A stretch of 32,000 nt of DNA, taken from the NCBI RefSeq assembly GCF_000014785.1, contig NC_008340.1, positions 3,060,001 to 3,092,000 of the forward strand. The letters are read 5' to 3'. The notes below the pieces were generated by a model, which did no database searches, was not told the DNA's origin, and was given only the letters and a program-made list of their open reading frames with translations. This DNA is from Alkalilimnicola ehrlichii MLHE-1 (GTDB lineage Bacteria > Pseudomonadota > Gammaproteobacteria > Nitrococcales > Halorhodospiraceae). Positions 5,442 to 19,390 of this stretch are shown piece after piece (the first letter of the stretch is position 1; each line of letters starts with the position of its first letter). The translations under genes and the position numbers were made by a program.

Positions 5442-5577
5442 AACCGCGCCATGCCCCCCGGCTGAAGCCCGACTCTGCCCAACTGGGCCTGCATCGGCAG
5501 CATTCCACTCCCCGATTAGGTATTCGTTACCCCTATCATGCGCCCGGTCACACAGGTAGGGTCAAGTGCCCGGGGGG

Positions 5578-8500
5578 TCAATCGTCCTCGCCCATGGCGA
5601 ACAGACTGGCGTTGCCACCGGCGGCAGCAGTGTTGACGGTCACGACCCGCTCGGCGGCGAAACGCAGCAGGTAGTGCGGCCCACCAGCCTTGAAACCGGT
5701 GCCCGACAGGCCCTCGCCACCAAAGGGCTGGCTACCCACTACCGCCCCCACCATGTCGCGGTTGACGTAGGCATTGCCCACCCGGGCGCGGTTCACCACC
5801 GCGGCGGCGGTCTCGTCCACCCTGCTGTGCACTCCCAGAGTCAGGCCGTAGCCCAGGCCGTTGATCCGGTCCACCAGCGCATCCAGCTCGCCGGCCCGCC
5901 AGGTCACCCAATGCAACAGCGGCCCGAAATGCTCCCGGCCCAACTGGTCGATACGGTCGAGACGGTAGAGGGCAGGGGCAACGAAGCTGCCCCGCTCACA
6001 CTCCGGTCGCAGCGGGGCCTGGTGCAGCAGGCGCCCCGCACTGACCATCCGCTCATGGTGGGCCAGCAGGCCATCCCGGGCGGCCGGGTCGATAACCGGT
6101 CCCACGTCGGTGGCCAGCCAGTGGGGATCGCCGACGGTGAGGGCGTCCATGGCCCCCTTGAGCATCGCCAGCAGGTCATCGGCAATATCCTCCTGCACGC
6201 AGAGCAGGCGCAGGGCCGAACACCGCTGGCCGGCGCTGTGGAAGGCCGAGCGAATGATGTCCACCACCACCTGCTCGGGCAGCGCACTGGAGTCCACCAC
6301 CATGGCGTTGAGCCCGCCGGTCTCGGCGATCAACGGCACAATGGGGCCCTCACGCTGCGCCAGCCCCTGCTGGATACGCCGTGCGGTGTCGGTGCCCCCG
6401 GTGAAGGCCACGCCGGAGATGCGGGGGTCCGCGACCAGGTGCGGGCCGATCTCGCCGCCGTCGCCGGGCAGCAGGTGCAGGGCAGTCTCGGGGATACCGG
6501 CCCGATGCATCAACGCCACCGCCTGATGGGCGATCAGGCTGGCCTGTTCCGCCGGCTTGGCGACCACCGTGTTGCCCGCGGCCAGGGCGGCGGTGACCTG
6601 GCCGGTGAAGATCGCCAACGGGAAGTTCCAGGGACTGATGCAGAGGAAGGTCCCGCGCGGGTGGAGGCGCAGTTCGTTACGCTCGCCGGTGGGGCCGGGC
6701 AGCACGGTGGCCTGCCCGAACAGGCGACGGGCCTGGTGCGCGTAGTAACGGCAGAAGTCGGCCGCCTCACGCACCTCGGCAATGCCGTCCTTCAGCCCCT
6801 TGCCCGCCTCCCGGGTGCACAGGGCCATCAGTTCGGCGCCATGCGCCTCGTAGAGTTCGGCGATCTGCTCCAGGGCCCGGGCGCGGGTCTCGGCCCGGGT
6901 ATTGGCCCAGGTCTCCCGACCGGCCACGGCCGCCTCCAGGGCGTGTTCCACGTCGGCATGCTCGGACCAGACCACTCGGCCCACCTGGCGCTCACGGTCC
7001 GCGGGGCAGTGCACCGCCTCACCCGCGCCCGCCTTGACCTGGCCGTCGATCAGCGGCGCGGCCCGCCAGGCATGTTCGCTGGCGGCCTCCATGGCCTCGG
7101 CCAGCCAGACCATCTCGTGGCGGTCGGAGAAATCCAACCCGATGCTGTTCAGACGCTGTTCGCCGTAGAGGTCCCGGGGCAGCGGGATGCGCGGGTGGCG
7201 CAGACTCTCGCGGGCGCGCAGGCTGGACGCCGGGTCAGCGACCAGGGCCTCCACGTCGCCCTCGTGGATACGGTTGACGAAGGAGGAGTTGGCGCCGTTC
7301 TCCAGCAGGCGCCGGACCAGGTAGGCGAGCAGTTCCTCGTGACTGCCCACCGGGGCGTAGATGCGGCAGGGGATATCCGGCCCGCCAGCGCGTCCCAGCA
7401 ACTGCTCGTAGAGCGCCTCGCCCATCCCGTGCAGCCGCTGAAACTCGTAGGGCTGGCGGCCGGCCAGTTCCATGACTGCCGCGACGGTATGGGCGTTGTG
7501 GGTGGCGAATTGCGGGTAGAGGTGCGGGCACTCGCTGAGCAGGCGCCGGGCGCAGGCCAGATAGGCGACGTCGGTGGCCGCCTTGCGGGTGAAGACCGGG
7601 TAGTCCCTCAGGCCCTGGACCTGGGTCTCCTTGATCTCTGTGTCCCAATAGGCGCCCTTGACCAGGCGCACCATCAGCGCGCGGTTTTGCCTGGCCGCCT
7701 GCGCCTCGAGCCAGCCTACCAGGGCATAGCAGCGCTTCTGGTAGGCCTGGATCGCCAGGCCGAAGCCCTCCCAGTCCGCCAGCCCCGGCTCGGCAAGCAC
7801 CGCCTCAATCACATCCAGCGACAGGTCCAGGCGCCAGGACTCCTCGGCATCCACACAGAGGGCGATGTTGTAGTCGCGGGCCAGTTCGCAGAGCTGCAAC
7901 AGCCGGGGCAGGACCGTGCCCATCACCCGTGCCTCCTGACCCGGCTCGTAGCGCGGATCCAGGGCGGAGAGCTTCACCGAGACCCCGGCCCGGTCGCGGA
8001 TGCGGGCCTGCGGGTCCACTGCCTTGCCGACCCGGTGGATGGCGTTGCGGTAGGCCTCGAAGTAGGCCTGGGCGTCGGCGTCGGTGCGGGCGGCCTCGCC
8101 CAACATGTCGTAGGAGTAGCGGTAGCCCTTGCGCTCGTTGGGGTGGGCCCGTTTCAGCGCCTCATCGATATCCCGCCCCAGGACGAAGGTGTCGGCCAGC
8201 AGGCCCATGGCCCGGCGCACCGCGGTGCGGATGACCGGTTCGCCCGCGCGCGCCACCATGTGGTGCAGGACCCCGCCCAGCCAGCGGTCGCGGTCATCGG
8301 TATCGATGATCCGCTCGGTGAGCAGCAGGCCCCAGGTGGCGGCATTGACGAACAGCGGCCGGTCCCGCCCCAGGTGGGTCTCCCAATGCGAGGCGGTCAG
8401 CTTGTCGTGGATGAGCTTGTCCGCGGTGTAGCGGTCGGGCACTCGCAGCAGGGCCTCGGCCAGACACATGAGCACGATGCCCTCCTCGCTGGAGAGGTCG

Positions 8501-8730
8501 TACTCGTGCAACAGCGCGTCCACCCCGAACTCCCCCTTTTGCGCGCTGATCATGCCCATGACCAGCGATCGGGCGTGCGCCTGGATGCGCCGGTTGGCGG
8601 TTTCGCCCAACGCGGCCCGCTCCAGCATGACCGATGTGACCTTGGCCTCGTCGGCGCGGTAGGCCTCGGCGAGGACGGCCCGCTCCGGGTGCAGCAAGGC
8701 GTCGGGTTGCGGGTGAACAAAATGGCTCAT
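5578..8730 (-). CDS. putA: Bifunctional proline dehydrogenase / L-glutamate-gamma-semialdehyde (P5C) dehydrogenase
   Basis: I place the start at ATG 8730 (MSHFVHPQPDALL..., 1050 aa). The 64 codons upstream in the ORF track are R/P/A-rich and overlap the divergent gene's promoter region. A PRODH barrel is followed by an ALDH domain (FTGGTDTARRI..., IAETGGLNAMVVDSSALPEQ, AGQRCSALR) and the typical tail AAAGGNASL. There is no N-terminal ribbon-helix-helix extension, so it is not the long E. coli-type regulatory form. Confidence 0.93.
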   Translation of the reverse strand: MSHFVHPQPDALLHPERAVLAEAYRADEAKVTSVMLERAALGETANRRIQAHARSLVMGMISAQKGEFGVDALLHEYDLSSEEGIVLMCLAEALLRVPDRYTADKLIHDKLTASHWETHLGRDRPLFVNAATWGLLLTERIIDTDDRDRWLGGVLHHMVARAGEPVIRTAVRRAMGLLADTFVLGRDIDEALKRAHPNERKGYRYSYDMLGEAARTDADAQAYFEAYRNAIHRVGKAVDPQARIRDRAGVSVKLSALDPRYEPGQEARVMGTVLPRLLQLCELARDYNIALCVDAEESWRLDLSLDVIEAVLAEPGLADWEGFGLAIQAYQKRCYALVGWLEAQAARQNRALMVRLVKGAYWDTEIKETQVQGLRDYPVFTRKAATDVAYLACARRLLSECPHLYPQFATHNAHTVAAVMELAGRQPYEFQRLHGMGEALYEQLLGRAGGPDIPCRIYAPVGSHEELLAYLVRRLLENGANSSFVNRIHEGDVEALVADPASSLRARESLRHPRIPLPRDLYGEQRLNSIGLDFSDRHEMVWLAEAMEAASEHAWRAAPLIDGQVKAGAGEAVHCPADRERQVGRVVWSEHADVEHALEAAVAGRETWANTRAETRARALEQIAELYEAHGAELMALCTREAGKGLKDGIAEVREAADFCRYYAHQARRLFGQATVLPGPTGERNELRLHPRGTFLCISPWNFPLAIFTGQVTAALAAGNTVVAKPAEQASLIAHQAVALMHRAGIPETALHLLPGDGGEIGPHLVADPRISGVAFTGGTDTARRIQQGLAQREGPIVPLIAETGGLNAMVVDSSALPEQVVVDIIRSAFHSAGQRCSALRLLCVQEDIADDLLAMLKGAMDALTVGDPHWLATDVGPVIDPAARDGLLAHHERMVSAGRLLHQAPLRPECERGSFVAPALYRLDRIDQLGREHFGPLLHWVTWRAGELDALVDRINGLGYGLTLGVHSRVDETAAAVVNRARVGNAYVNRDMVGAVVGSQPFGGEGLSGTGFKAGGPHYLLRFAAERVVTVNTAAAGGNASLFAMGEDD

Positions 8731-8750
8731 TGGTAAAGTCTGGACCACGG

Positions 8751-8779
8751 GCCTGTGGCTGCAAGGGAACCCGTATAAT
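8751..8779 (+). promoter_or_regulatory. Candidate sigma70 promoter for the Trx-membrane gene (perfect -10, poor -35)
   Basis: A perfect TATAAT sits at 8774-8779, 32 nt upstream of ATG 8811, which stands out in this GC-rich context. The hexamer 17 nt upstream (GCCTGT, 8751-8756) is a poor -35. Confidence 0.25.
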
Positions 8780-8810
8780 CGGACAGACCACCGTGCAGGA
8801 GGGGACCCCC

Positions 8811-10124
8811 ATGGAGCAGACGTCCGCCGCCCGCCAGCCGTCGGAACAGGCAGCCCGGCTGAGCGTCTGGGTGCTACTGCTGCTCGGGGCCCTCCTGCTG
8901 CAGCAACCCGTACCGAGTGCACAGGCCGCTGAGAACGGCCCCGCCGGGGCGGACACCATCACCCTGCATTTCTTCTGGACCCAGCAGTGCCCCCGCTGCA
9001 TTGCCGCCCTGCCCGCCGTCCGCCGGCTGGCCGAGGACTACGACTGGCTGGAGGTGCGCAGCTACAACCTCAGCGCGGAGCCACGGCACGGCCAGGTCTA
9101 CCGGGAACTGGCCAGCGCCCTGGGCGAGGAGGCCCGGGCGGTGCCGGGGTTTGTCTTCTGCGACGCCATGCTGGTGGGCTTCGATGACCACGGCCGGCAG
9201 GAGGCGCGATTGCGCCAGTTGCTGGAGACCTGTCATGCGCAGATCCAGGCCGGCGGGCCGCCGGTGCTGGAGCGTGCCCTTTGGACCGAGGCGGAACCCA
9301 TGCGGTTGCCGCTGCTCGGCGAGGTGCGGCCGGATGACCTCTCGCTGCCGGCACTGACCCTCCTGCTGGCCGGGTTCGACGCCTTCAACCCCTGCGCCTT
9401 CTTCGTGCTGCTGTTCCTGCTCAGCGTGGTGGTGCACAGCCGCAGCCGCGGCCGTATCCTGCTGATTGGCGGCATCTTCGTGACCATCTCCGGGGTCATT
9501 TACTTCACCTTCATGACCGCCTGGCTGAACGCCTTCCTGGTCTTTGGCGAGATGCCGCTGGTGACCCGGCTGGCCGGGCTGGTGGCGGTGACCATGGCGC
9601 TGATCAACATCAAGGACTACTTCTGGTTCAAGCGCGGCGTGTCACTGAGCATTCCGGACTCGGCCCGGCCGGGGCTGTTCCGGCGTATGCGCGCACTCAC
9701 CACCGCCGACAGTCTGCCCTGGGTGCTGGGGGCCACGCTGATCCTCGCCGTGGTGGTGAACCTCTACGAGATCCTCTGCACCATGGGCTTCCCCATGATC
9801 TACACCCGCATCCTCACCGCCCACGACCCGGGCGCGGTGGGATACTACGGCTACCTGCTGGCCTACAACGTGATCTACGTGCTTCCCATGCTCATCATCG
9901 TGGCGCTGTTCGCCTTCACCCTGGGCAATCGCAAGCTGCAGGAAGACGAGGGGCGGCTGCTGAAACTGCTCTCGGGGATGATGATGCTGGGTCTGGGACT
10001 GATGCTGCTGCTGCGTCCGGACCTGCTGGCCAACCCCCTGTTCGCCGTCGGCGTCATCTTCCTGGCCCTGCTGGCCACCGGGCTGGTCCGCCGTCTGTCC
10101 CCGCGAGGGTCAGGCGGTCGATGA
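8811..10124 (+). CDS. Periplasmic thioredoxin-fold domain fused to a CcdA/DsbD-like polytopic membrane domain (putative thiol:disulfide oxidoreductase)
   Basis: Start is taken at ATG 8811, with GGAGGGG 7 nt upstream. The N-terminus is a signal peptide (VWVLLLLGALLLQQPVPSAQA/AE). The Trx-like module has CPRC (codons at 8988-8999) in FFWTQQCPRCIAALP. About 6-7 TM helices follow. TM1 carries AGFDAFNPCAFF (compare B. subtilis CcdA GFLSFISPC). A later TM carries YEILCTMGFP (compare CcdA GWTPCTGP). Confidence 0.8.
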   Translation: MEQTSAARQPSEQAARLSVWVLLLLGALLLQQPVPSAQAAENGPAGADTITLHFFWTQQCPRCIAALPAVRRLAEDYDWLEVRSYNLSAEPRHGQVYRELASALGEEARAVPGFVFCDAMLVGFDDHGRQEARLRQLLETCHAQIQAGGPPVLERALWTEAEPMRLPLLGEVRPDDLSLPALTLLLAGFDAFNPCAFFVLLFLLSVVVHSRSRGRILLIGGIFVTISGVIYFTFMTAWLNAFLVFGEMPLVTRLAGLVAVTMALINIKDYFWFKRGVSLSIPDSARPGLFRRMRALTTADSLPWVLGATLILAVVVNLYEILCTMGFPMIYTRILTAHDPGAVGYYGYLLAYNVIYVLPMLIIVALFAFTLGNRKLQEDEGRLLKLLSGMMMLGLGLMLLLRPDLLANPLFAVGVIFLALLATGLVRRLSPRGSGGR

Positions 10125-10345: not shown

Positions 10346-11065
10346 ATGCAAACACCACGAGTTTTGTTATTTTCAGTGCTGTTTGTCCTTTTGCTGATGG
10401 GTTGCGGGAATGAACAATCGGCGGACGACGACGCGGCACCGCTCGCCTCCAATAGGCCCGCATTGGAGGCGAGCGCGGTTGCCGATCTGTTGGTGCAGAA
10501 CTTCCATGATCAGACCGCGATTTTCGAGGAGATTGGTGATCGCATCCTGGCCATTGACGGGCAAGCCGCCGCCGAAGAGGTAGGCCGGCTCCTCGAGGGA
10601 GCCTACACGGACCGGGCGATTGCCGGGATTGAGGACATGGTCCAGTGGGCGGAAGAGTACCTGGTACCTCTCGATGCGGCGGAGCGTGCGGTACTCGCCG
10701 AGGAACTGGATGCGATCTTCGCGGCGGATGGCCGCCTAAAGGAAGCCGGGATGAGATTGGATCGGGCCACAGAGCGCGTTGACGGGAGTATCAACGCGCT
10801 GTTCCTGGCCAACCCGGGGCAGGCGCAAACGGTGCTCAATGGCGTGATCGCCTTTGGGGAAAACCTGGAGGCCTTCATGAACGATGAGCGGTGGCTGGCT
10901 CTGGACCGTCTTCTGGCACCGGAGCCGGCTCCCGAGGACGCAGCCCGCGGGTCGGCCGGGCAGATCGGTTCGCCTACCTGGTGTGAACGGATGGCCAACA
11001 CGCCGCAGTCCCAATGGACGATGAACGACGCCTTTGCGTTCGCGAACCATTGCACGGGCGGTTGA
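10346..11065 (+). CDS. Hypothetical lipoprotein, acidic and all-helical, with a C-terminal Cys-X22-Cys module
   Basis: The lipobox LLLMGC|G follows a hydrophobic signal sequence. GGAGGG lies 8 nt upstream of the ATG. The C-terminus GSPTWCERMANTPQSQWTMNDAFAFANHC resembles, from memory, the short 'WC...W...HC' lipoprotein module known as DUF3012. The gene has more A/T-ending codons than its neighbours. Confidence 0.7.
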   Translation: MQTPRVLLFSVLFVLLLMGCGNEQSADDDAAPLASNRPALEASAVADLLVQNFHDQTAIFEEIGDRILAIDGQAAAEEVGRLLEGAYTDRAIAGIEDMVQWAEEYLVPLDAAERAVLAEELDAIFAADGRLKEAGMRLDRATERVDGSINALFLANPGQAQTVLNGVIAFGENLEAFMNDERWLALDRLLAPEPAPEDAARGSAGQIGSPTWCERMANTPQSQWTMNDAFAFANHCTGG

Positions 11066-11238: not shown

Positions 11239-11841
11239 ATGCACCGCAGAAACCCAACCCTCAAGGCAGCCGCGATCAGCGCTTTCATCGGCACGGCGGC
11301 CTTGACGTCACCCGCGCTCCACGCCGACCCCTTCGACGGCTTCTTCGCACCAGGGGACAACGGGGAGGCCTCCATCGCGCCGGTTGAGTCCTTATTCCTG
11401 ACGATCTACGAGGCTGCCGACGGCACCAGCGAGGGCTACGCCCGAGCTCTGACGGAAGCGATCAACTATCGCGTGGCCGCCATGCAGATCTTCGGCGACG
11501 ACTGGTTCAAGATTGACAGGGCACTGCGCAACGACTTCCTGGAGGTGTTCCCATCGGCCATACAGGACTACCTGGAATCGCTGGCGATCACCGATTTTCA
11601 CATTGAGTCCATCACGCCAACCGAGAGGGACACTGAGTTCGATGCCTCGGGCGAACTGGTGACGGACGCAACGCAAGACCCACTGCCGGTAACCTGGACC
11701 GTCAGGGTTCGCGGCCCGGAGGCCCGGATCATCCGGGCAGAAACCGCTGACGCAACCCTACTGCTACCTGAGCATGCACGTCAGCAGGTTGCCGACAATC
11801 CGACGGATCTTGAAGATATCATGGGTGGCCTGGGTTACTGA
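11239..11841 (+). CDS. Secreted hypothetical protein, possibly MlaC/Ttg2D-like lipid-binding protein
   Basis: AGGAGA lies 8 nt upstream of the ATG. The signal peptide is KAAAISAFIGTAALTSPALHA/DP. The central segment INYRVAAMQIFGDDWFKIDRALRNDFLEVFPSAIQDYLESL, followed by VTWTVRVRG..ARIIRAETADATLL, loosely follows the MlaC layout. The functional assignment is weak. Confidence 0.6.
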   Translation: MHRRNPTLKAAAISAFIGTAALTSPALHADPFDGFFAPGDNGEASIAPVESLFLTIYEAADGTSEGYARALTEAINYRVAAMQIFGDDWFKIDRALRNDFLEVFPSAIQDYLESLAITDFHIESITPTERDTEFDASGELVTDATQDPLPVTWTVRVRGPEARIIRAETADATLLLPEHARQQVADNPTDLEDIMGGLGY

Positions 11842-13234: not shown

Positions 13235-14074
13235 TCAGCTCGCGGAAGTGGGACGCGCCGGCACCAAGAGCACGAGCTGGTGGCTATTACGGCAGACCGC
13301 CTCGGCGGTGCTCCCCAGCAGGAGTTCAGTTAACGGGTTGTGGCCGCGCCGCCCGAGCACCACCAAGTCCGCCTGCTGTTCCCTGGCCACCTGGCTGATC
13401 ACCTGGCTGGGCTTGCCACGCCCTACCAATACCGTCTGGAAGGTGTCCGCGCCTGCTTGATCGAGAAGGCCCCGGATATGCTGCTCGATCCGTACCCGTT
13501 CGCCATCCTCATCCTTGCGATCATCCCACCGGCCGACGGAGACCACGACCCCCCGACCACAATGGGGCAGCAGCTTGAGAAAGGCCGCCTCGGCGCCGGA
13601 GGCCGCCTCGGAGCCATCGGTGGCCAGTAGCGGCCGGCAGATACCGCCCGAAGGCAGGGACGCCTCGCCATTGATCGGCACCAGCAACAGAGGCCGGTCG
13701 GCCAGACGCGCAAGGTTCAGCACCGTATTGCCAAGGAGCAGTTCGTGGACAAAACCGTGCCCCTGGCTGCCGGCCAGGATGGTGCCCGCCTGGCAGGCCT
13801 CGGCGGCGGCGATCAGCTCCTGGGCCACGGCGCCGACCCGGATCGTCCAGTCCACGTCCAGCCCGGTGGCCTGTTTCAGTGCCTTCGCCGCCTCGGCCAG
13901 CTTTTCCTCGTAATAGGCCCGATGACCCAGCTCCGGGGCCTGGGTATACCCCTCGGCCATCACGTAGGCCAGGGTCACGCGCCGGCAGCCCAGCGCCGGC
14001 AGGCGGGCCAGTTGGGCCTCCAGTTGCGACCAGGCCGGTGAGAAGTCGATGGCGGCCAGTATATGCTTCAGCAT
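13235..14074 (-). CDS. Universal stress protein, tandem UspA-domain type
   Basis: 279 aa with two Usp modules. The first runs ILAAIDFS...ILAGSQGHGFVHELLLGNTVLNLARLADRPLLLVP. The second runs LLATDGS...DLVVLGRRGHNPLTELLLGSTAEAVCRNSHQLVLLVP. GGAGAAAGG precedes the ATG. It lies 30 nt downstream of the CC-motif ORF on the same strand, so it may be the last gene of the ars transcript. Confidence 0.85.
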   Translation of the reverse strand: MLKHILAAIDFSPAWSQLEAQLARLPALGCRRVTLAYVMAEGYTQAPELGHRAYYEEKLAEAAKALKQATGLDVDWTIRVGAVAQELIAAAEACQAGTILAGSQGHGFVHELLLGNTVLNLARLADRPLLLVPINGEASLPSGGICRPLLATDGSEAASGAEAAFLKLLPHCGRGVVVSVGRWDDRKDEDGERVRIEQHIRGLLDQAGADTFQTVLVGRGKPSQVISQVAREQQADLVVLGRRGHNPLTELLLGSTAEAVCRNSHQLVLLVPARPTSAS

Positions 14075-14104
14075 GTCCTTTCTCCGTTGGCTGAATCGCC
14101 AGAA

Positions 14105-14425
14105 TCATTGCCCTTCGGTTTTCGTGTGCCCCGCGGGGCGCCAGGGGCTGACGGCGCCCTCCACCACCAGGCGTTTCCAGCGCCAGAACCCTTCCACATC
14201 CACCCGGTAGGGGCCTTCGGAGAGCGCCCGGGCCAGGTAGACGGTGACGCCCTCCAGCGACAGGGCCTGGTAGTCCTCGCGGGCCTCCGGCACCCGGACC
14301 TCGGCCCGGGGCACGGCTGCGTGGCCGCCGCAGCAGCCATGTTGGGGGGCGGCACGCACAGTCAGTACGCCCCCCTGGGCCAGCACCCATGCCCGCGCCG
14401 CCGGGGTCAGGATGACCGGGGTCAT
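14105..14425 (-). CDS. Uncharacterised 106-aa protein with vicinal-cysteine HGCCGG motif, translationally coupled to acr3
   Basis: Its ATG (14425-14423) overlaps the acr3 stop codon in an ATGA junction (14422-14425). The CC codons are at 14330-14335. The N-terminal layout (ILTPAARAWV..GGVLTVR....GCCGG) is reminiscent of IscA/HesB-type scaffolds, but the C-terminal CxC is absent. From memory it resembles small proteins annotated 'CC/Se motif family (seleno)protein'; this is unverified. Confidence 0.7.
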   Translation of the reverse strand: MTPVILTPAARAWVLAQGGVLTVRAAPQHGCCGGHAAVPRAEVRVPEAREDYQALSLEGVTVYLARALSEGPYRVDVEGFWRWKRLVVEGAVSPWRPAGHTKTEGQ

Positions 14426-15537
14426 GCCTTGCCCGAGGCGGGGGCCAGCCCCGGCTGCGTCTCTTCCGGGAACCAGTGCTTGGTTTTATTGGCGATGCGG
14501 ACCAGCGCCAGCATCAGCGGTACCTCCACCAGCACGCCCACCACGGTGGCCAGCGCCGCCCCCGATTGCAGGCCGAACAGGGCGATGGCCGCGGCCACGG
14601 CCAGCTCGAAGAAGTTGCTGGCGCCAATCATGGCCCCGGGTGCCGCCACCGAGTGCTGCACCTTCCACGCCTTCGCCCAACGATAGGCAATGAAGAAGAT
14701 CAGGAAGGTCTGGATGATCAGCGGGATCGCGATCAACAGAATGTGCAGCGGGTTGTTCAGGATCACCTCGCCTTGGAAGGCGAACAGCAGGATCAGGGTG
14801 AGGATCAGCCCGATGGGCGTCACCGGCGCCAGGCGCTTCATGAAGACGTTGTCGAACCACTCCACGCCCTTGTGTTTGATGAGCATCACGCGGGTCAGGT
14901 AGCCGGCAGCCAGCGGGATGACGATGTACAGGAACACCGACAACGCCACGGTATCCCACGGCACCTGGATGTCAGAGATGCCCAGCAGCAGCACCACGAT
15001 GGGGGCAAAGGCGAACAGCATGATCAGGTCGTTCACCGAGACCTGCACCAGGGTGTAGGCGGCATCGCCCCGGGTGAGGTAGCTCCAGACGAAGACCATG
15101 GCGGTGCAGGGGGCCGCGCCCAGCAGGATGGCCCCGGCCAGGTACTCCCGGGCCAGGTCCTCCGGGATGAAGGGCTGGAAGACCACCATCAGGAAGAACC
15201 AGGCGATGGCGAACATGGTGAAAGGCTTGATCAGCCAGTTCACAGTGGTGGTGATCACCAGCCCCTTGGGCTGCCGGCGCACACCGAGGATGGCACCGAA
15301 GTCGATCTGCACCATCATCGGGTAGATCATGGCCCAGATCAGGATGGCGACGGGGATGGAGACCTGGGCGTACTCGAAGCGTGCAAGGGTATCCGGCACC
15401 ACCGGCAGAAACTGCCCCAGCAGCACGCCGGCGATCATGCCCAGCGCCACCCAAAGGGTGAGGTAGCGCTCGAACAAGCCCATACCCTCCTTGGTGGAGG
15501 GGGTGTCATTGGCGGCGGTCGGCTGCGAATCACTCAT
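14422..15537 (-). CDS. acr3: Arsenite efflux transporter, ACR3 family
   Basis: 371 aa. GLFERYLTLWVALGMIAGVLLG...GAAPCTAMVFVWS... is the canonical ACR3 sequence, including the conserved Cys in GAAPC. The ATG overlaps the arsA stop (ATGA at 15534-15537). Confidence 0.94.
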   Translation of the reverse strand: MSDSQPTAANDTPSTKEGMGLFERYLTLWVALGMIAGVLLGQFLPVVPDTLARFEYAQVSIPVAILIWAMIYPMMVQIDFGAILGVRRQPKGLVITTTVNWLIKPFTMFAIAWFFLMVVFQPFIPEDLAREYLAGAILLGAAPCTAMVFVWSYLTRGDAAYTLVQVSVNDLIMLFAFAPIVVLLLGISDIQVPWDTVALSVFLYIVIPLAAGYLTRVMLIKHKGVEWFDNVFMKRLAPVTPIGLILTLILLFAFQGEVILNNPLHILLIAIPLIIQTFLIFFIAYRWAKAWKVQHSVAAPGAMIGASNFFELAVAAAIALFGLQSGAALATVVGVLVEVPLMLALVRIANKTKHWFPEETQPGLAPASGKA

Positions 15538-17249
15538 GAGTAGTCTTCGCTCCAGGGTTCAATAATCAGTCGGCTGTGATGTTCGCTCACGATCTCGCGC
15601 AGCCAGCGGGCCTCCTGCGCCTGGCGGGCGCGCAGCACCGGGTCGGTCACCGCCAGCGGGGTCAGCGACTGGTTGACAATCCAGGCCGCCGGCTCGATCT
15701 CCGCCCGGCGCAGGTCCGCCTGCAGAGCTGCCGCCTCGTGCACGGGCGTGGCCTCCGGCAGGGTGCAGATCAACATGTGGGTGTAGTGGGGGTCACGCAG
15801 CCGGGGCAGCAACTGCTCCACCTCCGGCGCCACCTCCTGGCTCTGCCGGCCCAGCTCGCGGTGATAGGCCTGGGCGGCATCCAGCAGCAGGATGGTGTGG
15901 CCGGTGGGGGCGGTGTCCAGCACCACGATCTCGTCCTCGGCCCGGGCCACGGTACGGGCGAAGGCCTGGAAGACGGCGATCTCCTCGGTACAGGGCGAAC
16001 GCAGGTCCTCCTCCAGCAGCTTGCGCCCCTCCTCGTCCATGTCGGCGCCGGCGGTGGCCATGACGTGCTCGCGGTAGCGCTCGGTCTCGGCCTTGGGGTC
16101 CACCCGGCCGACCGTCAGCCCGGTGGGCAGCTCGCCGCCCACGGCAGCGGCCACGTGGGCCGCCGGGTCGGTGGTGGTCAGGTGAACACTGTGCCCGCGG
16201 GAGGCGAGCGCCACGGCGATCCGGGCCGCCAGGGTAGTCTTGCCCACCCCGCCCTTGCCCAGGGTCATGACCGCACCGCGGCCGTCGCGCTCCAGGCTGT
16301 CAATGAGTTGCTCGAAGGACTCGCCCTCGGGTGCGTCCTCCGCCGGCTGTTCGGGAATGTCGGGGGCCTGCTCGCCCAGCAGGATGCGCAGGCCGTCCAG
16401 GCCCATGGGCGCGTGCGCCCGCAGTGGCCGCTCGCTGCGCGGCAGCTCCGCCAGCCCGGCGGGCATGGCCTCGAGGGCGCGCTGGCCCCGCGCCTCCAGG
16501 GCCCGGGCCACCGGGTCGTCGGCGTCGGTGGCGCGAAAGACGCCGTTGACCACCAGATGCTGGTTTTTCACACCGAGGTCGCGCAGTTCTTCGCTGGTGC
16601 GGGCGGCCTCGTCCAGCGCGGCCCCCTCCGGCCGGCTGACCAGCACCAGGGTGGTGCGGTCGGCCTCCGCCAGCGCCTCCACCGCGCCGGCATAGACGTC
16701 CTTCTGGGCGGACAGCCCTTCCAGCGGGCCCAGGCAGGAGGTGCCGGAGGTGTTGGTCTCGATGTACCCGCTCCAAGCGCTGGGCAGGGAGAGCAGCCGC
16801 AGGGTGTGACCGGTGGGGGCGGTGTCGAACACCAGGTGGTCGTAGCCCTCGGCGGCGCGGGGGTCGCCCAGCAGGCCGGCGAAGGCGTCGAAGGCGGCGA
16901 TCTCGACGGTGCAGGCACCAGAAAGCTGCTCTTCCATGCTCCGCACGATGGCGTCCGGGAGCTGACCACGGTAAGGACCGACGACGCGCTCGCGGTACTC
17001 CTCGGCAGCCTTTTCCGGATCGATGTTGAGTGCATGGAGGTTGTCCACGCCATTGACCGGGCGCGGAGTACCGGTCAGGTCGGTCTCCAGCACCTCGTCG
17101 ATGTTGGAGGCCGGGTCGGTGGAGACCAGCAGGACACGCTTGCCCCGCTCCGCTAGGGCCAGCGCCGTGGCGCAGGCGAGGGAGGTCTTACCGACACCGC
17201 CCTTTCCGGTGAAAAAGAGATTGCGCGTGGCGTTTTCCAGAAATTGCAT
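15534..17249 (-). CDS. arsA: Arsenite-stimulated efflux ATPase ArsA (two-domain)
   Basis: 571 aa. The deviant Walker A is duplicated: GKGGVGKTS at the N-terminus and GKGGVGKTT in the second half. The signal-transduction motif DTAPTGHT occurs twice. Three metalloid-site cysteines are in the expected contexts (SGACTVEIAAFDAF, SGTSCLGPLEG, RSPCTEEIAVFQAF). Confidence 0.96.
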   Translation of the reverse strand: MQFLENATRNLFFTGKGGVGKTSLACATALALAERGKRVLLVSTDPASNIDEVLETDLTGTPRPVNGVDNLHALNIDPEKAAEEYRERVVGPYRGQLPDAIVRSMEEQLSGACTVEIAAFDAFAGLLGDPRAAEGYDHLVFDTAPTGHTLRLLSLPSAWSGYIETNTSGTSCLGPLEGLSAQKDVYAGAVEALAEADRTTLVLVSRPEGAALDEAARTSEELRDLGVKNQHLVVNGVFRATDADDPVARALEARGQRALEAMPAGLAELPRSERPLRAHAPMGLDGLRILLGEQAPDIPEQPAEDAPEGESFEQLIDSLERDGRGAVMTLGKGGVGKTTLAARIAVALASRGHSVHLTTTDPAAHVAAAVGGELPTGLTVGRVDPKAETERYREHVMATAGADMDEEGRKLLEEDLRSPCTEEIAVFQAFARTVARAEDEIVVLDTAPTGHTILLLDAAQAYHRELGRQSQEVAPEVEQLLPRLRDPHYTHMLICTLPEATPVHEAAALQADLRRAEIEPAAWIVNQSLTPLAVTDPVLRARQAQEARWLREIVSEHHSRLIIEPWSEDYS

Positions 17250-17357
17250 GGCCTGCCTTTGACGTTGATGGTTGATGGCGGATGGTTGAACCGATGGGCC
17301 CAGAGGTGCCTTTAGCGGTCGAATGCACGCCGGCTTCCATCAGGGGCTGTCATGCTG

Positions 17358-17735
17358 TCAACAGCAGCCGGAGCCCGGTGACTGATCGTTGCCACCACAG
17401 CCGCCAGCGGACTCGGTGTCAGCCGATTCGGCCTTGATGCCAACCCAGGCGGCCAGCGCCTGGCGATCCGGGTAGCTGCCCTGGCTCATCACCTCGCCGT
17501 CCACCAGGAAGACCGGCAGGGCGTCCTCGCCCCGGCGCTGGAGGATGTCCTTAACGGTCGCGTTCTCGACGAAGGCGCCGGGTTGTTGCGAGAGGTTGTA
17601 GCGGATGACGGACACCCCCTGTTTTTTCACCCAGTCCAGGTCGGCGGCCAGCTTCGAGAGCTTGGGATCGACACTCGGGCCACAGACACCCGTGGAACAG
17701 CACTGCGGCGGGTCGAAAACAGTCAGTTCGGTCAT
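17358..17735 (-). CDS. arsD: Arsenic metallochaperone / weak trans-acting repressor ArsD
   Basis: 125 aa. MTELTVFDPPQCCSTGVCGPSVD carries the Cys12-Cys13-Cys18 As(III) site. The C-terminus carries further Cys (GGCGG...GSGCC). AGAGGTG precedes the ATG. Confidence 0.93.
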   Translation of the reverse strand: MTELTVFDPPQCCSTGVCGPSVDPKLSKLAADLDWVKKQGVSVIRYNLSQQPGAFVENATVKDILQRRGEDALPVFLVDGEVMSQGSYPDRQALAAWVGIKAESADTESAGGCGGNDQSPGSGCC

Positions 17736-17809
17736 GTCAAAACACCTCTGCTACGAATGGATAAAACGCGAACCGCGACGCGCGCCTGACGACGCCCGCT
17801 CCGGGCGGT

Positions 17810-18232
17810 TCACTTCAGCGCGGCCACCAGATCAGCAACACGGCGCTTGATGTCATCCCGCACCGTCCGGAACTCCGCCATGATCTCATCCTCGGTGCCC
17901 CGGGCCTTCGCCGGATCGGGCAATGGCCAGTGGTGCTTCTCGATACCCACGGGCACCACCGGGCAGTGCTCGTCGGCATGCCCGCAGACGGTCACCAGCA
18001 CGTCGGCCCGGGCCAGCATCTCGTCGGTCAGGCGCGTGGAGGCCTGCTCGGCGATATCCACGCCGTCTTCGGCCATGACCGCGATGGCGCGCGGATTCTT
18101 GCCGTGGGCCTCGATGCCGGCGGACAGCACCTCCAGGTCGTCGTCTGCCATCGCGCGGGCATAGCCCTCGGCCATTTGCGAACGACAGGAGTTGCCGGTA
18201 CAGAGAAACAGCAGGGTCTTACGCTCGGGCAT
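17810..18232 (-). CDS. arsC: Arsenate reductase, LMW-PTPase fold, thioredoxin-coupled type
   Basis: 140 aa. LFLCTGNSCRSQMAEGY is the CX5R P-loop. VCGHADEHCP supplies the Cys82/Cys89-equivalent pair of the pI258-type ArsC. GAGG precedes the ATG. Confidence 0.92.
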   Translation of the reverse strand: MPERKTLLFLCTGNSCRSQMAEGYARAMADDDLEVLSAGIEAHGKNPRAIAVMAEDGVDIAEQASTRLTDEMLARADVLVTVCGHADEHCPVVPVGIEKHHWPLPDPAKARGTEDEIMAEFRTVRDDIKRRVADLVAALK

Positions 18233-18250
18233 GGTTGACCTCGAAGTTTG

Positions 18251-18595
18251 TCATGAAAGCGATGGCCGGTTGGGCATCCCGCCGAGACGCTGTTGCGCCG
18301 CCTTCCAAGGCACGCCGGTGCCCTCGCCGACGGCCTCGATAACCCGACGCACCCAGTCCGGCAGGCCATCCGCCAACCGATAATGGACCCACTGTCCCCG
18401 CCGCTCATCGGTCACCAGCCCGGCATCGCGCAATTGCGCCAGATGGCGCGAGATCTTGGGCTGGGAGACCTCCAGCGCATGGGTCAGCTCACAGACGCAC
18501 AACCGGCCCTCCGCGCGCAGTAGCAGCACGCTGCGCAGCCGGGTGGAATCCGACAGGAGGCGGAACAGTTTTTCAGGGGCTATGCTCATGGGCAT
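18251..18595 (-). CDS. arsR: ArsR/SmtB-family As(III)-responsive repressor
   Basis: Only the C-terminal ~112-114 aa of the 307-aa track ORF is ArsR-like: (MP)MSIAPEKLFRLLSDSTRLRSVLLLRAEGRLCVCELTHALEVSQPKISRHLAQLRDAGLV. It includes the CVC metalloid-binding motif and the wHTH. The start is ambiguous, with in-frame ATGs at 18589, 18595, 18607 and 18613. The remainder of the track ORF is antisense to the flavin reductase gene. Confidence 0.88.
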   Translation of the reverse strand: MPMSIAPEKLFRLLSDSTRLRSVLLLRAEGRLCVCELTHALEVSQPKISRHLAQLRDAGLVTDERRGQWVHYRLADGLPDWVRRVIEAVGEGTGVPWKAAQQRLGGMPNRPSLS

Positions 18596-18609
18596 GAATA
18601 TACGCATCT

Positions 18610-18621
18610 CCATATATCTGG
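18610..18621. promoter_or_regulatory. Candidate ArsR operator (imperfect palindrome) in the arsR / flavin-reductase divergent region
   Basis: CCATATATCTGG matches its own reverse complement at 10 of 12 positions. It is an AT-rich core in a GC-rich region immediately upstream of the arsR start codons. ArsR operators are AT-rich dyads overlapping the promoter. The assignment rests on position and symmetry only. Confidence 0.3.
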
Positions 18622-18718
18622 TCAAGCGGATGGCACCCCCTTCATGGGGCGCTTCACCATCCAGGCCACGATGCCAAAATACCCTGGTGAGCTTGACCCT
18701 GCCAGTAACGGAGCCCCT

Positions 18719-19390
18719 ATGAAAACACTGATCTTTGTCGGCACGTCCCGTCAGAGCACCCCACCCAGGCCGCCCCGGCTGGGTCTGCGGGTCGCCAGGG
18801 CCTGCCTGGCCTACTTCAATGAATGGCTTCCGGACCATCAGGTAGAGCTGGTCGACCCGCTGGACCTGACATTCGGTGCCGTGTTCAAGCCGCACTTCGC
18901 CTATGCGAGCCAGCAGGCCCCGGATCAGCTCCGCGCCCTCGCGGAACAGATCGAGGCGGCCGACAGCTATGTCATGGTCAGTCCGGAATACAATCACTCC
19001 ATGAGCCCGGTACTCGCCCACCTGCTGAACCATTTCGGGAGTTCGCTCTTCTCCTACAAACCCAGCGCGATCGTCACCTACTCCGCCGGACAATGGGGCG
19101 GGGCCCGGGCCGCGGTGGCGATGCGGACATTTCTCTCCGAGTTGGGCTGTCTCCCGGTCTCCGCAATGATCCACATCCCCAAGGCGCAGACGGTGCTGGC
19201 CGAGGACGGCTCATTTCTAGAAGGGGCCGACGACGAGGAATGGACGGGCTACATGGGCAGAACGCTGCAACAACTGAACTGGTGGGCGGCCGCCGCGCGG
19301 GCGCACCGGCAGCAGGCTGACCCGTTCGACCGGGCTCAAGCGTTCCAGCGCGACCCATCGCAACGGAACGCGCCGAAACCGCCGGAGTGA
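18719..19390 (+). CDS. NAD(P)H-dependent FMN reductase family protein (flavodoxin-like fold; not canonical ArsH)
   Basis: Start is taken at ATG 18719 (GGAG 5 nt upstream), giving 223 aa. MKTLIFVGTSR...ADSYVMVSPEYNHSMSPVLAHLLNH... matches the FMN_red family signature. It is divergently transcribed from arsR. Confidence 0.85.
   Translation: MKTLIFVGTSRQSTPPRPPRLGLRVARACLAYFNEWLPDHQVELVDPLDLTFGAVFKPHFAYASQQAPDQLRALAEQIEAADSYVMVSPEYNHSMSPVLAHLLNHFGSSLFSYKPSAIVTYSAGQWGGARAAVAMRTFLSELGCLPVSAMIHIPKAQTVLAEDGSFLEGADDEEWTGYMGRTLQQLNWWAAAARAHRQQADPFDRAQAFQRDPSQRNAPKPPE

What the first reader, a model, noticed from the sequence alone, without database searches (positions are those of the whole stretch)
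8811..10124. Signal peptide + CPRC thioredoxin-fold domain fused N-terminally to a degenerate CcdA/DsbD-like membrane core
The protein has a cleavable-looking signal peptide and a periplasmic Trx-like domain with CPRC. Its 6-7 TM core has exactly two membrane-embedded cysteines, in FNPCAFF and EILCTMGFP. These align with the two PC motifs of CcdA (ISPCCLP / TPCTGP), but the flanking prolines are partly lost. The implied chain is cytoplasmic reductant, then the TM Cys pair, then the fused periplasmic CxxC. That would be a self-contained one-polypeptide reductant conduit. The domain order (Trx first, then TM core) differs from DsbD (DsbD-alpha, TM core, Trx-like gamma). No cytochrome c maturation, copper (scs) or methionine-sulfoxide-reductase partner genes are adjacent, so the client is unknown. 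The two low-GC exported proteins immediately downstream, one with a C-terminal Cys pair, are possible clients.
Basis: partly seen in the sequence, partly recalled or inferred. Interest (0 to 1): 0.55.

Follow-up and report, generated by a model that had tools for sequence, protein, structure and literature searches.

The report
Glutaredoxin-fused membrane thiol relay, uncharacterised family
This gene encodes an exported glutaredoxin-like CxxC domain fused to a seven-helix membrane core with two invariant buried cysteines. It belongs to a very large, unnamed family that most likely carries reducing power across the inner membrane as DsbD/CcdA do, but it is not a recognisable member of that family.

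Summary
ORF 8811-10124 (Alkalilimnicola ehrlichii, UniProt Q0A544) has a signal-peptide-like N-terminus and an exported CPRC redox domain. It also has a 7-helix core whose only cysteines, C195 and C323, sit at breaks in TM1 and TM4.

These two cysteines are kept in 146/147 and 149/150 representatives that share less than 50% identity. The family is huge: 4146 clusters at 50% identity, at least 589 species, and no Pfam model for the membrane part.

- The soluble domain is glutaredoxin/NrdH-type rather than classical thioredoxin.
- The membrane core does not match the DsbD_TM or DsbD_2 models. Its only sub-threshold Pfam hits are to SfLAP/GAP and LysE, which are placed in the same superfamily as DsbD.
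- Profile-profile alignment to DsbD is collinear with both cysteines in register, but it is not significant.
- CcdA is the best structural match by TM-score, but that match is not significant either.
- The downstream "client" ORFs are not conserved neighbours.

Instead, about 18% of related loci place the gene beside CDF metal-efflux or arsenic-resistance genes, and the window itself has an ars cluster 4 kb away.

Best reading (about 0.5): a new class of one-polypeptide transmembrane thiol-disulfide relay used under metal(loid) stress. The main rival is a thiol-lined metal(loid) transporter.

The parts
8797..8802 (+). Shine-Dalgarno AGGAGG, 8 nt before ATG 8811
   Evidence: Read directly from the sequence. 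It supports the 437-aa start that RefSeq also uses.
8811..10124 (+). Whole gene (437 aa plus stop): A. ehrlichii MLHE-1 Q0A544 / WP_049753607.1
   Evidence: ORF listing. 100% match to the A. ehrlichii protein.
8811..8927 (+). Signal-peptide-like N-terminus (residues 1-39, AQA|A); an uncleaved anchor is the alternative
   Evidence: Sequence features read directly. AF2 models a helix at residues 11-30. No dedicated signal-peptide predictor was available.
8952..9248 (+). Periplasmic glutaredoxin/NrdH-type thioredoxin-fold domain (residues 48-146)
   Evidence: AF2 gives a beta-alpha-beta-alpha-beta-beta-alpha fold with pLDDT of about 86-96 across most of the domain. Foldseek matches thioredoxins at TMt 0.55-0.71. 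A family profile hits PDB 1fo5 at 3e-5. Pfam Glutaredoxin matches 63/101 relatives, best 2.9e-12.
8988..8999 (+). Active-site motif CPRC (C60, C63); the family consensus is CPHC
   Evidence: C60 is 100/101 and C63 is 99/101 in diverse relatives. Among 150 representatives CPHC occurs 66 times and CPRC 12 times.
9141..9146 (+). V111-P112, the candidate cis-proline loop of the thioredoxin fold
   Evidence: P112 is kept in 99/101 relatives. It sits just before beta3 in the AF2 model.
9159..9233 (+). C117 and C141 (codons 9159-9161 and 9231-9233), a clade-specific second Cys pair and probable structural disulfide
   Evidence: Invariant in 37 close relatives. Each is Cys in only 19/101 diverse relatives, the same count for both.
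9291..9344 (+). Conserved linker / beta-hairpin (LPLLGxxxPxxxSLP) between the redox domain and TM1
   Evidence: P167 is 77/101 and G170 is 94/101. AF2 models strands at 164-166 and 170-172.
9345..9440 (+). TM1 (residues 179-210), running out-to-in and broken at F192-N193; motif D190-A-F-N-P-C195 (Cys codon 9393-9395)
   Evidence: AF2 helices 179-191 and 194-210. D190 and C195 are 101/101, N193 100/101 and P194 98/101.
9714..9824 (+). TM4 (residues 302-338), running in-to-out and broken at 325; motif N317-x-Y-E320-x-L-C323-T-x-G-x-P328 (Cys codon 9777-9779)
   Evidence: AF2 helices 302-324 and 326-338. C323 is 101/101, E320 100/101 and P328 100/101.
9345..10097 (+). Seven-helix membrane core (residues 179-429): a 3+3 unit plus an extra TM7, with a cytoplasmic C-terminus
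   Evidence: AF2 models. Positive-inside count of 16/75 inside against 1/36 outside. Many relatives are 6-TM variants that end after TM6.
14422..19174 (-). Nearby arsenic-resistance genes: ACR3 (14422-15537), ArsA (15534-17249) and an ArsR-type regulator (18251-19174). This is context, not shown to be co-transcribed.
   Evidence: Pfam SBF 1.7e-43, ArsA_ATPase 3.6e-93 and HTH_5 1e-14. Ars genes lie within 6 kb of the family in 10/85 loci.

Best explanation
The protein is a one-polypeptide transmembrane thiol-disulfide relay.

**Proposed mechanism**
1. A cytoplasmic dithiol donor, presumably thioredoxin, reduces a disulfide between C195 and C323. These lie at the breaks of TM1 and TM4 in the centre of a 3+3 LysE-superfamily core.
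2. The reduced pair then reduces the CPRC (family consensus CPHC) site of the N-terminal glutaredoxin-like domain. That domain is tethered on the periplasmic face.
3. The glutaredoxin-like domain reduces periplasmic targets.

**Shown here**
- The domain fold and the topology.
- The position and near-absolute conservation of the four cysteines.
- The size and distribution of the family.

**Inferred**
- That C195 and C323 form a redox pair.
- The direction of electron flow.
- The identity of the donor and of the clients.

Gene context in relatives suggests the relay serves envelope thiol maintenance under metal(loid) stress. This would parallel ScsB or DsbD in copper islands, rather than a dedicated cytochrome c or Msr pathway.
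For: **Fold and cysteine placement**
- AF2 places each membrane Cys at a helix break in TM1 and TM4 of a 3+3 core.
- The positive-inside count puts the redox domain outside and TM1 running out-to-in, as in DsbD.

**Conservation**
- The two TM cysteines are kept in 146/147 and 149/150 representatives of less than 50% identity, and in 101/101 of a diverse set.
- A CxxC lies upstream of the core in 124/150 representatives. Most of the exceptions are N-terminally truncated fragments.
- The soluble domain is a bona fide redox fold: Glutaredoxin HMM up to 2.9e-12, CPHC consensus and cis-Pro in 99/101.

**Similarity to DsbD/CcdA**
- hhalign against a 43-sequence DsbD TM alignment is collinear over 200-234 columns. 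NPC aligns with TPC and LLCT with SPCT. It scores better than three unrelated TM families and a reversed control.
- Foldseek of the TM-only model shows CcdA 5vkv with by far the highest TM-score (0.40/0.47 against 0.27 or less for the others), probability 0.66 and 23% identity.
- Sub-threshold Pfam hits go to SfLAP and LysE, the superfamily that contains DsbD (PMC4608589).

**Gene context**
- Context recalls the known DsbD/ScsB habit of sitting in metal-resistance islands. CDF or ars genes occur in 15/85 loci.
- Plasmid-borne dsbD genes lie next to copper-binding, DsbA-family and TlpA-family genes.
- A NapC/NirT multihaem cytochrome c gene lies upstream within about 370 bp in 6 loci, and 2.3 kb downstream in a seventh.
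Against: **No significant link to DsbD/CcdA**
- Pfam DsbD_TM and DsbD_2 give no hit, even at E up to 10 for the window core and the family consensus.
- A DsbD HMM finds nothing among the family ORFs.
- The hhalign probability is about 1% or less, and the Foldseek E-value is 0.79.
- No internal-repeat signal was detected.

**Features DsbD/CcdA lack**
- An invariant acidic residue precedes each Cys (D190 and E320), and there are invariant tyrosines. In other LysE-superfamily families this pattern goes with cation binding.
- The Pro before the second Cys is missing.

**Context and missing measurements**
- A DsbB homologue lies next to the gene in two loci, and the CPHC consensus is also the DsbA motif. 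The direction of electron flow is therefore not settled.
- No universally conserved partner gene exists.
- The Sgamma-Sgamma distance could not be measured, because model coordinates are not exposed.
Confidence: 0.5

Rival explanations
1. Thiol-lined metal(loid) transporter. The periplasmic CxxC domain would act as a metallochaperone. The intramembrane C195/C323 site, together with D190 and E320, would bind and translocate a soft or borderline metal(loid) such as As(III), Cd, Zn or Cu(I) by ligand exchange. This is MerP/MerT-like logic built on a LysE-superfamily fold.
For: - Invariant Asp/Glu sit 5 and 3 residues before each invariant Cys, alongside invariant Tyr and Asn in the membrane.
- The LysE superfamily is dominated by metal and amino-acid carriers (PMC4608589).
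- A CDF efflux gene lies close by on the same strand in 7 of the 9 loci that carry one.
- In beta-proteobacteria the gene sits in an operon: Met/Gly-rich secreted protein, CDF, target, ArsC, ACR3, ArsP.
- One relative is fused to ZnuA at the head of a znuCB-like operon.
- The window has ACR3, ArsA and ArsR 4-9 kb away.
- From general knowledge: ACR3 and ArsP use intramembrane Cys for As(III), and ArsD is a thioredoxin-fold As(III) chaperone.
Against: - The soluble domain keeps the full catalytic signature of a redox thioredoxin/glutaredoxin fold: CPxC at the N-terminus of helix 1 and cis-Pro in 99/101. It is not a known metal-binding fold.
- 70 of 85 loci have no CDF or ars neighbour.
- Inward transport of a toxic metal(loid) makes little sense in a resistance operon, and an exporter would not need a periplasmic chaperone.
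- DsbD and ScsB, which are reductases, are also found in metal islands.
Confidence: 0.2
2. Oxidative or isomerase module. The CPHC domain would work like DsbA, or like a membrane-tethered DsbC/ScsC, and would be re-oxidised by DsbB/quinone. The membrane core would be an anchor or regulator, with its cysteines serving another role.
For: - The family consensus CPHC with Val-cisPro is the DsbA active-site pattern (general knowledge).
- DSBA HMM sub-threshold hits occur in 15/101 relatives.
- A DsbB homologue (PF02600, 8.3e-28) lies directly upstream in L073. A member of the same cluster lies 1.4 kb downstream in L046.
Against: - The core has no periplasmic-loop CxxC and no quinone-site features of DsbB or VKOR. 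It has only single cysteines deep in TM1 and TM4.
- Invariance of those two cysteines in a mere anchor is unexplained.
- DsbB adjacency occurs in only 2/85 loci.
- The same CPHC motif occurs in the reducing M. jannaschii redoxin 1fo5, which is the best PDB sequence match.
Confidence: 0.12
3. GAP/LysE-type secondary exporter of a small thiol or lipid. The glutaredoxin domain would act on the exported molecule in the periplasm, for example in glutathione-type chemistry. The TM cysteines would be substrate-binding rather than a redox pair.
For: - The only Pfam hits of the core are SfLAP (8/101, best 8.9e-6) and LysE (2/101, 5e-4).
- The soluble domain is glutaredoxin-type, with an SVP...G(Y/F)DD pattern reminiscent of glutaredoxin glutathione-site motifs (general knowledge).
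Against: - All the hits are below the Pfam gathering scores.
- Neither the family consensus nor the window protein hits SfLAP.
- No transporter of this superfamily is known to need a Cys in each half.
- No glutathione or lipid biosynthesis genes recur nearby.
Confidence: 0.1

Closest known systems
CcdA (TC 5.A.1.2; Pfam PF02683; NMR structure 5vkv)
   Same: - A six-helix 3+3 core with one redox Cys in a kinked TM1 and one in TM4, and an N-terminus outside.
- It is the best structural match of the TM-only model by TM-score.
- It hands electrons to an extracytoplasmic thioredoxin-fold partner.
   Different: - No HMM or significant profile match.
- Here the thioredoxin-fold partner is fused N-terminally.
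- There is an extra TM7.
- The motifs are DxxNPC and ExxC...P instead of SPC and PCxxP.
- Invariant Asp, Glu and Tyr are present in the membrane.
DsbD / DipZ of E. coli (alpha-beta-gamma) and ScsB
   Same: - A single polypeptide that joins a Cys-pair membrane domain to periplasmic redox domains.
- Often encoded in metal-resistance contexts (PMC3322552).
   Different: - DsbD and ScsB have 8 TMs, an Ig-like or ScsB-type alpha domain at the N-terminus and a thioredoxin-like gamma domain at the C-terminus.
- This protein has one (in some relatives two) glutaredoxin-like domains at the N-terminus, 6-7 TMs and no alpha domain.
- The Pfam DsbD models do not match.
Mycobacterial DipZ-type CcdA-thioredoxin fusions (from general knowledge and PMC3322552, Fig. 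2 legend)
   Same: A two-module fusion of a CcdA-like core with a single thioredoxin-fold domain.
   Different: The domain order is reversed, with the thioredoxin domain C-terminal. That core is a recognisable PF02683 member.
SfLAP / GAP family (PF11139; TC 2.A.116; mycobacterial Gap, Sap)
   Same: - The only Pfam family that the core touches. P0346 residues 393-587 match model positions 3-178 of 213.
- 6 TMS in a 3+3 arrangement, within the LysE superfamily.
   Different: - All hits are below the gathering score.
- GAP proteins are about 230-aa stand-alone actinobacterial proteins implicated in glycolipid export.
- They are not known to carry a redox domain or a conserved Cys pair.
VKOR-thioredoxin and DsbB/DsbA systems
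   Same: A membrane redox module physically or genetically coupled to a periplasmic thioredoxin-fold CxxC domain.
   Different: - Those are oxidases, with a loop Cys pair plus a CxxC next to quinone.
- This core has neither.

Membership tests
DsbD/CcdA/ScsB membrane domain (Pfam PF02683 DsbD_TM, PF13386 DsbD_2; TC 5.A.1) | Sequence match to the family HMMs | tested here: not met
   There is no hit for the window protein, the TM-only segment, the family consensus or 37 close relatives. Neither model is among the 25 families listed for 101 diverse relatives. The E. coli DsbD TM control scores 1.4e-81 and 1.6e-8. A DsbD HMM finds no family ORF at E up to 10.
DsbD/CcdA/ScsB membrane domain | Two conserved cysteines, one in TM1 and one in TM4 of a 3+3 core | tested here: met
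   C195 lies at the TM1 break and C323 at the TM4 break. They are kept in 146/147 and 149/150 representatives and 101/101 diverse relatives.
DsbD/CcdA/ScsB membrane domain | Pro immediately before each redox Cys (PC motifs) | tested here: inconclusive
   TM1 has N-P-C, with P194 in 98/101. TM4 has L-L-C with no preceding Pro, but has G326 and an invariant P328 at +5.
DsbD/CcdA/ScsB membrane domain | N-terminus outside, with TM1 running periplasm to cytoplasm | tested here: met
   Signal-peptide-like N-terminus. K+R count of 16/75 in the predicted inside loops against 1/36 outside.
DsbD/CcdA/ScsB membrane domain | Significant profile-profile or structural similarity | tested here: inconclusive
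   hhalign is collinear with both Cys aligned, but P is 0.11 (local) and 0.019 (global). The reversed control gives 0.2 and 0.055. Foldseek to 5vkv gives TM 0.40/0.47, probability 0.66 and E 0.79.
DsbD/CcdA/ScsB membrane domain | Electron transfer from cytoplasmic thioredoxin to a periplasmic thioredoxin-fold acceptor | not testable with these tools
   This needs redox trapping or reconstitution.
Glutaredoxin / NrdH-type thioredoxin fold (PF00462) | beta-alpha-beta-alpha-beta-beta-alpha fold with CxxC at the start of helix 1 and a cis-Pro loop | tested here: met
   AF2 secondary structure with pLDDT above 90. Foldseek matches thioredoxins at TMt 0.55-0.71. C60 is 100/101, C63 99/101 and P112 99/101.
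Glutaredoxin / NrdH-type thioredoxin fold (PF00462) | HMM match above the gathering score | tested here: inconclusive
   The window protein itself has only weak thioredoxin/TraF hits. Several relatives pass: P0245 at 47 bits, P0368 at 41 and P0348 at 37, against a cutoff of 22.9. In all, 63/101 match at E up to 0.1.
SfLAP / GAP (PF11139) | HMM match above the gathering score (35 bits) | tested here: not met
   8/101 relatives hit at E up to 0.1, best 8.9e-6. P0346 scores 20.6 bits. The window protein and the family consensus have no hit.
DsbB / VKOR membrane oxidases | CxxC plus a loop Cys pair facing the periplasm, next to a quinone site | tested here: not met
   The core contains only C195 and C323, one in each of TM1 and TM4. 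There is no PF02600 or VKOR hit.
MerT/MerP mercury uptake | Vicinal Cys pair in TM1 of MerT; ferredoxin-like GMTCxxC MerP | tested here: not met
   The cysteines lie on different helices. The soluble domain has a thioredoxin fold, not an HMA fold.

The most novel reading that the evidence does not exclude
This is the founding example of a fourth class of transmembrane thiol-disulfide (two-electron) carriers, so far uncharacterised. It has a GAP/LysE-like 6-7 TM core that carries a Cys pair at the same place as DsbD/CcdA, but it is too diverged, or independently evolved, to be recognised as one of them. It is permanently fused to an N-terminal periplasmic glutaredoxin-like domain. It occurs in at least 589 species, mainly sulfur- and iron-oxidising Proteobacteria, Caldilineae, cyanobacteria and Nitrospinales, and has been recruited repeatedly into arsenic and zinc/cadmium resistance operons.
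Probability: 0.4. Interest if true: 0.7.

Novelty: new variant of a known kind. Interest (0 to 1): 0.58.

Why it matters
Only three classes of proteins are known to carry reducing power across the bacterial inner membrane: DsbD, CcdA and ScsB (PMC3322552).

This is a fourth candidate class that is widespread and has no Pfam model. It has a different partner domain (glutaredoxin-like) and a different domain order. If confirmed, it would change how envelope redox capacity is inferred from genomes of chemolithotrophs and other environmental bacteria. Many such genomes might otherwise be scored as lacking such a system.

Its repeated placement in ars and CDF operons offers a testable link between metal(loid) stress and periplasmic thiol maintenance. 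Alternatively, it could reveal a new thiol-based metal(loid) translocation mechanism.

The invariant Asp/Glu next to each cysteine is a concrete handle for mechanistic work.

Tried and rejected
- **Pfam and NCBIfam scans.** I scanned the whole protein, the TM-only segment and the family consensus. There were no DsbD, CcdA or SfLAP hits.
- **PDB sequence searches.** A single sequence and two profiles found only thioredoxins for the N-domain and nothing for the core. E. coli DsbD TM itself does not find CcdA 5vkv by phmmer. Absence of simple sequence hits therefore says little.
- **Foldseek of the full model.** It was swamped by thioredoxin hits. The TM-only model was refolded and searched, with nothing significant.
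- **hhalign against a shallow enterobacterial DsbD alignment.** Not significant. After adding 11 plasmid DsbD/ScsB sequences the alignment became collinear but stayed non-significant.
- **Internal-repeat test of TM1-3 against TM4-6.** No signal.
- **Supplement of PMC3322552.** Its DsbD-superfamily sequences are not held.
- **Search for a conserved partner gene across 85 loci.** None was found. The four largest 'neighbour' clusters were alternative-frame ORFs inside the target gene.
- **Downstream window ORFs as clients.** Rejected.
- **Five literature searches.** None found a description of this architecture.
- **Promoter and terminator scan.** Uninformative.
- **A DsbD/CcdA gene in the flanks of the related loci.** None found.
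Full report
**1. What is there**

The window comes from Alkalilimnicola ehrlichii MLHE-1. The ORF product is 100% identical to ABI58043.1 / Q0A544, annotated 'conserved hypothetical / thioredoxin domain-containing'.

The finder's ATG at 8811 is preceded by AGGAGG at 8797-8802 and is the start RefSeq uses. The gene diverges from putA, whose start is at about 8733 on the minus strand.

The 437-aa product has these parts:
- An N-terminus with two Arg, a 14-residue hydrophobic stretch and AQA|A.
- A compact domain (residues 48-146) that AlphaFold2 models with pLDDT above 90 as beta-alpha-beta-alpha-beta-beta-alpha. CPRC sits at the start of helix 1, and V111-P112 sits where the cis-proline loop belongs.
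- A conserved hairpin linker.
- Seven membrane helices.

There are six cysteines (60, 63, 117, 141, 195, 323). Only C195 and C323 are in the membrane part. TM1 is broken at 192-193 (DAF-NPC) and TM4 at 325 (YEILC-TMGFP), so each cysteine sits at a helix break.

The predicted cytoplasmic loops carry 16 K+R in 75 residues, against 1 in 36 for the periplasmic loops. This fixes the redox domain outside and TM1 running out-to-in. The finder's observation is therefore correct in every checkable detail.

**2. Conservation and family size**

A word-indexed search found more than 4472 clusters at 90% identity. An exhaustive HMM search with the TM-only profile found 4146 clusters at 50% identity with E up to 1e-3, and 810 with E up to 1e-30.

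These loci are mostly sulfur- and iron-oxidising Gamma- and Beta-proteobacteria (Thioalkalivibrio, Thiocapsa, Halothiobacillaceae, Gallionella, Sulfuritalea, Thiobacillus). Woeseiaceae, methanotrophs, Caldilineae/Chloroflexia, cyanobacteria and Nitrospinales are also represented.

| Set examined | Result |
|---|---|
| 150 representatives, <50% mutual identity | TM cysteines kept in 146/147 and 149/150 |
| 101 diverse relatives (15% mean column identity): 101/101 | D190, C195, Y231, C323, Y352, Y356, G389 |
| Same set: 99-100/101 | C60 and E320 (100); C63 and P112 (99) |
| Same set: other near-invariant residues | N193 100, P194 98, K268 100, N317 97, P328 100, K385 99 (all of 101) |
| 150 representatives | CxxC upstream of the core in 124; CPHC 66 times, CPRC 12 times |

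Most representatives without a CxxC are N-terminally truncated metagenomic fragments. Two length variants exist: 7 TM, as here, and 6 TM ending after TM6. Some relatives carry two redox domains in tandem.

C117 and C141 are each Cys in only 19/101 relatives. They are probably a clade-specific structural disulfide.

**3. The soluble domain**

The window protein gives only weak thioredoxin and TraF hits. However, the Pfam Glutaredoxin model matches 63/101 relatives and exceeds its gathering score in several (47, 41 and 37 bits). Glrx-like, NrdH, YruB and MJ0307-type models follow.

A family profile finds the M. jannaschii CPHC redoxin 1fo5 at 3e-5. Foldseek aligns the domain to thioredoxins at TMt 0.55-0.71.

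'Trx-like' is therefore right at fold level, but the domain is of the short glutaredoxin/NrdH type.

**4. Is the core CcdA/DsbD?**

*Sequence models say no.*
- PF02683 and PF13386 do not match the window protein, its TM segment, the family consensus or the 37 close relatives. They are not among the 25 families listed for the 101 diverse relatives.
- The E. coli DsbD TM control scores 1.4e-81 and 1.6e-8.
- A DsbD HMM finds none of the family ORFs.

*Pfam families the core does touch.* The only ones of note are SfLAP/GAP (8/101 relatives, best 8.9e-6; P0346 covers model positions 3-178 of 213) and LysE (2/101). All are below the gathering scores. Tsu and Saier place GAP, LysE and DsbD in one superfamily of 3+3 TMS proteins (PMC4608589).

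*Profile-profile comparison.* I used a 145-sequence family profile against a DsbD TM alignment, built from 32 enterobacterial sequences plus 11 diverse plasmid DsbD/ScsB sequences.
- The alignment is collinear over 200 (local) to 234 (global) columns. DxFNPC pairs with AFTPC, and ELLCT with SPCT.
- P is only 0.11 (local) and 0.019 (global). A reversed control gives 0.2 and 0.055.
- Three unrelated TM families give 0.24-0.9 over 8-25 columns.

*Structure search.* Foldseek with the TM-only model finds nothing significant. CcdA 5vkv nonetheless stands out, with TM 0.40/0.47, probability 0.66 and 23% identity. Every other chain has TM 0.27 or less.

*Calibration.* E. coli DsbD does not find CcdA by phmmer either.

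*Conclusion.* The core shares the architecture and cysteine placement of DsbD/CcdA and probably belongs to the same superfamily. Family membership is not demonstrated. It also has features those families lack: an acidic residue before each Cys, invariant tyrosines, no Pro before the second Cys, and TM7.

**5. Context**

In the window, the two downstream ORFs are:
- a lipoprotein (LMGC lipobox) with a C-terminal DUF3012 Cys pair;
- a cysteine-free exported protein with a weak MlaC hit.

Neither recurs beside the family in 85 loci.

No neighbour is universal. The four largest apparent neighbour clusters were alternative-frame ORFs inside the target gene.

Lineage-specific linkages do exist.
- **CDF efflux.** A CDF cation-efflux gene occurs in 9 loci. 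In 7 of them it lies close by on the same strand, upstream in some and downstream in others.
- **Beta-proteobacterial operon.** The order is Met/Gly-rich secreted protein, CDF, target, ArsC (LMW-PTP type), ACR3, ArsP. L082 (3519-9211) carries the whole set. Parts of it recur in L021, L036, L032 and L078.
- **Another ars arrangement.** L073 has ACR3, ArsA, DsbB, then the target.
- **NapC/NirT cytochrome.** A NapC/NirT-type multihaem cytochrome c gene lies upstream within about 370 bp in 6 loci that include Thioalkalivibrio and Ectothiorhodospiraceae MAGs. It lies 2.3 kb downstream in a seventh locus.
- **ZnuA fusion.** One relative is fused to ZnuA ahead of ZnuC/ZnuB.
- **Lipoate-type module.** One two-domain relative heads a GcvH-like / pyridine-nucleotide-disulfide oxidoreductase / radical-SAM / lipoate-ligase operon that ends in ArsR-ArsP.
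- **Cyanobacterial plasmid.** This copy sits between DsrE and katG.

The window itself has Usp, ACR3, ArsA and ArsR on the opposite strand, 3.1-9 kb downstream of the gene's stop.

Overall, 10/85 loci have an ars gene and 15/85 have an ars or CDF gene within 6 kb. This looks well above chance, but about half of these cases are related beta-proteobacteria.

**6. Mechanism**

The best-supported reading is a DsbD-like relay: cytoplasmic dithiol donor, then C195/C323, then the tethered periplasmic CPxC, then clients.

The fold, topology and conservation are shown. The disulfide between the TM cysteines, the direction of flow, the donor and the clients are inferred.

The metal(loid) context fits the habit of DsbD and ScsB of residing in copper or metal islands (PMC3322552). 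It fits the main rival equally well, in which Cys2/Asp/Glu forms a metal(loid) site in a LysE-type carrier. The CPHC/Val-cisPro pattern and the two DsbB neighbours keep an oxidative reading alive at low probability.

**7. Novelty**

Five full-text searches found no description of this architecture. Databases call the protein 'thioredoxin/glutaredoxin family protein' or 'hypothetical', and the core has no Pfam model.

It works like a known kind, the transmembrane thiol-disulfide carrier. Its domain order, partner domain and core signature are new, and I could not show family membership. I therefore rate it a new variant of a known kind, of moderate-to-good interest.

Noticed in passing
window 13235-19174 (minus strand): An arsenic-resistance cluster lies 3.1-9 kb downstream of the target's stop, reckoned from Usp (the ACR3 gene itself starts 4.3 kb away). 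It comprises Usp (13235-14074), an ACR3/SBF-family permease (14422-15537), ArsA ATPase (15534-17249) and an ArsR-type HTH protein (18251-19174).
   Followed up: partly
L082 3519-9211; also L021, L036, L032, L078: Beta-proteobacterial relatives sit in an apparent operon. The order is Met/Gly-rich secreted protein (GMGPG repeats), CDF cation efflux, target, ArsC (LMW-PTP type), ACR3, ArsP permease. L082 has the full set and the other loci carry parts of it.
   Followed up: partly
L073 5260-5766; L046 8585-9091: A DsbB homologue (PF02600, 8.3e-28) lies directly upstream of the target in a Rhodocyclaceae MAG. A member of the same ORF cluster lies 1.4 kb downstream in a Thiotrichales MAG. This bears on the direction of electron flow.
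   Followed up: no
L099 6001-9832 (protein P0254): One relative is fused in frame to a ZnuA periplasmic zinc-binding domain and is followed by ZnuC- and ZnuB-like genes. It could be a real fusion, with the ZnuA signal peptide acting as TM8, or a gene-calling artefact.
   Followed up: no
L101 5001-11659 (protein P0245): A relative with two redox domains heads an operon. The operon has a GcvH-like protein, DUF169, a pyridine-nucleotide-disulfide oxidoreductase, a radical-SAM enzyme and an LplA/LipB ligase, then ArsR and ArsP. It resembles the lipoate-binding-protein modules of sulfur oxidisers and could be an alternative cytoplasmic dithiol donor.
   Followed up: no
L019, L020, L031, L050, L080, L085 (upstream of the target); L076 (2.3 kb downstream): A membrane-anchored NapC/NirT-type cytochrome with about six CxxCH motifs lies upstream on the same strand, with gaps of 22-372 bp. 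The loci include Thioalkalivibrio and Ectothiorhodospiraceae MAGs. It is a possible client class, through CxxCH reduction.
   Followed up: partly
window 10346-11065 and 11239-11841: The first downstream ORF is a lipoprotein (LMGC lipobox) whose C-terminus is a DUF3012 domain (1.1e-16) with two cysteines. The second has a signal peptide, a weak MlaC hit (0.002) and no cysteine. Both have slightly lower GC (0.62) than their neighbours.
   Followed up: partly
L006 4803-10049 (Pseudanabaena galeata plasmid pPg_03): The only plasmid-borne homologue (468 aa, annotated 'glutaredoxin family protein') lies between a DsrE-family gene and katG, with cysK nearby.
   Followed up: no
L057 (contig WJMO01000005.1): One of the 80 best loci is labelled as a Candidatus Altiarchaeales archaeon MAG, yet it is 47% identical to the proteobacterial proteins. 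This could be mis-binning or horizontal transfer.
   Followed up: no
window 8294-9437 and 5566-8736: Long alternative-frame and antisense ORFs overlap putA and the target, as expected at 68-70% GC. The same artefact produced the four largest false 'neighbour' clusters in the synteny analysis.
   Followed up: yes
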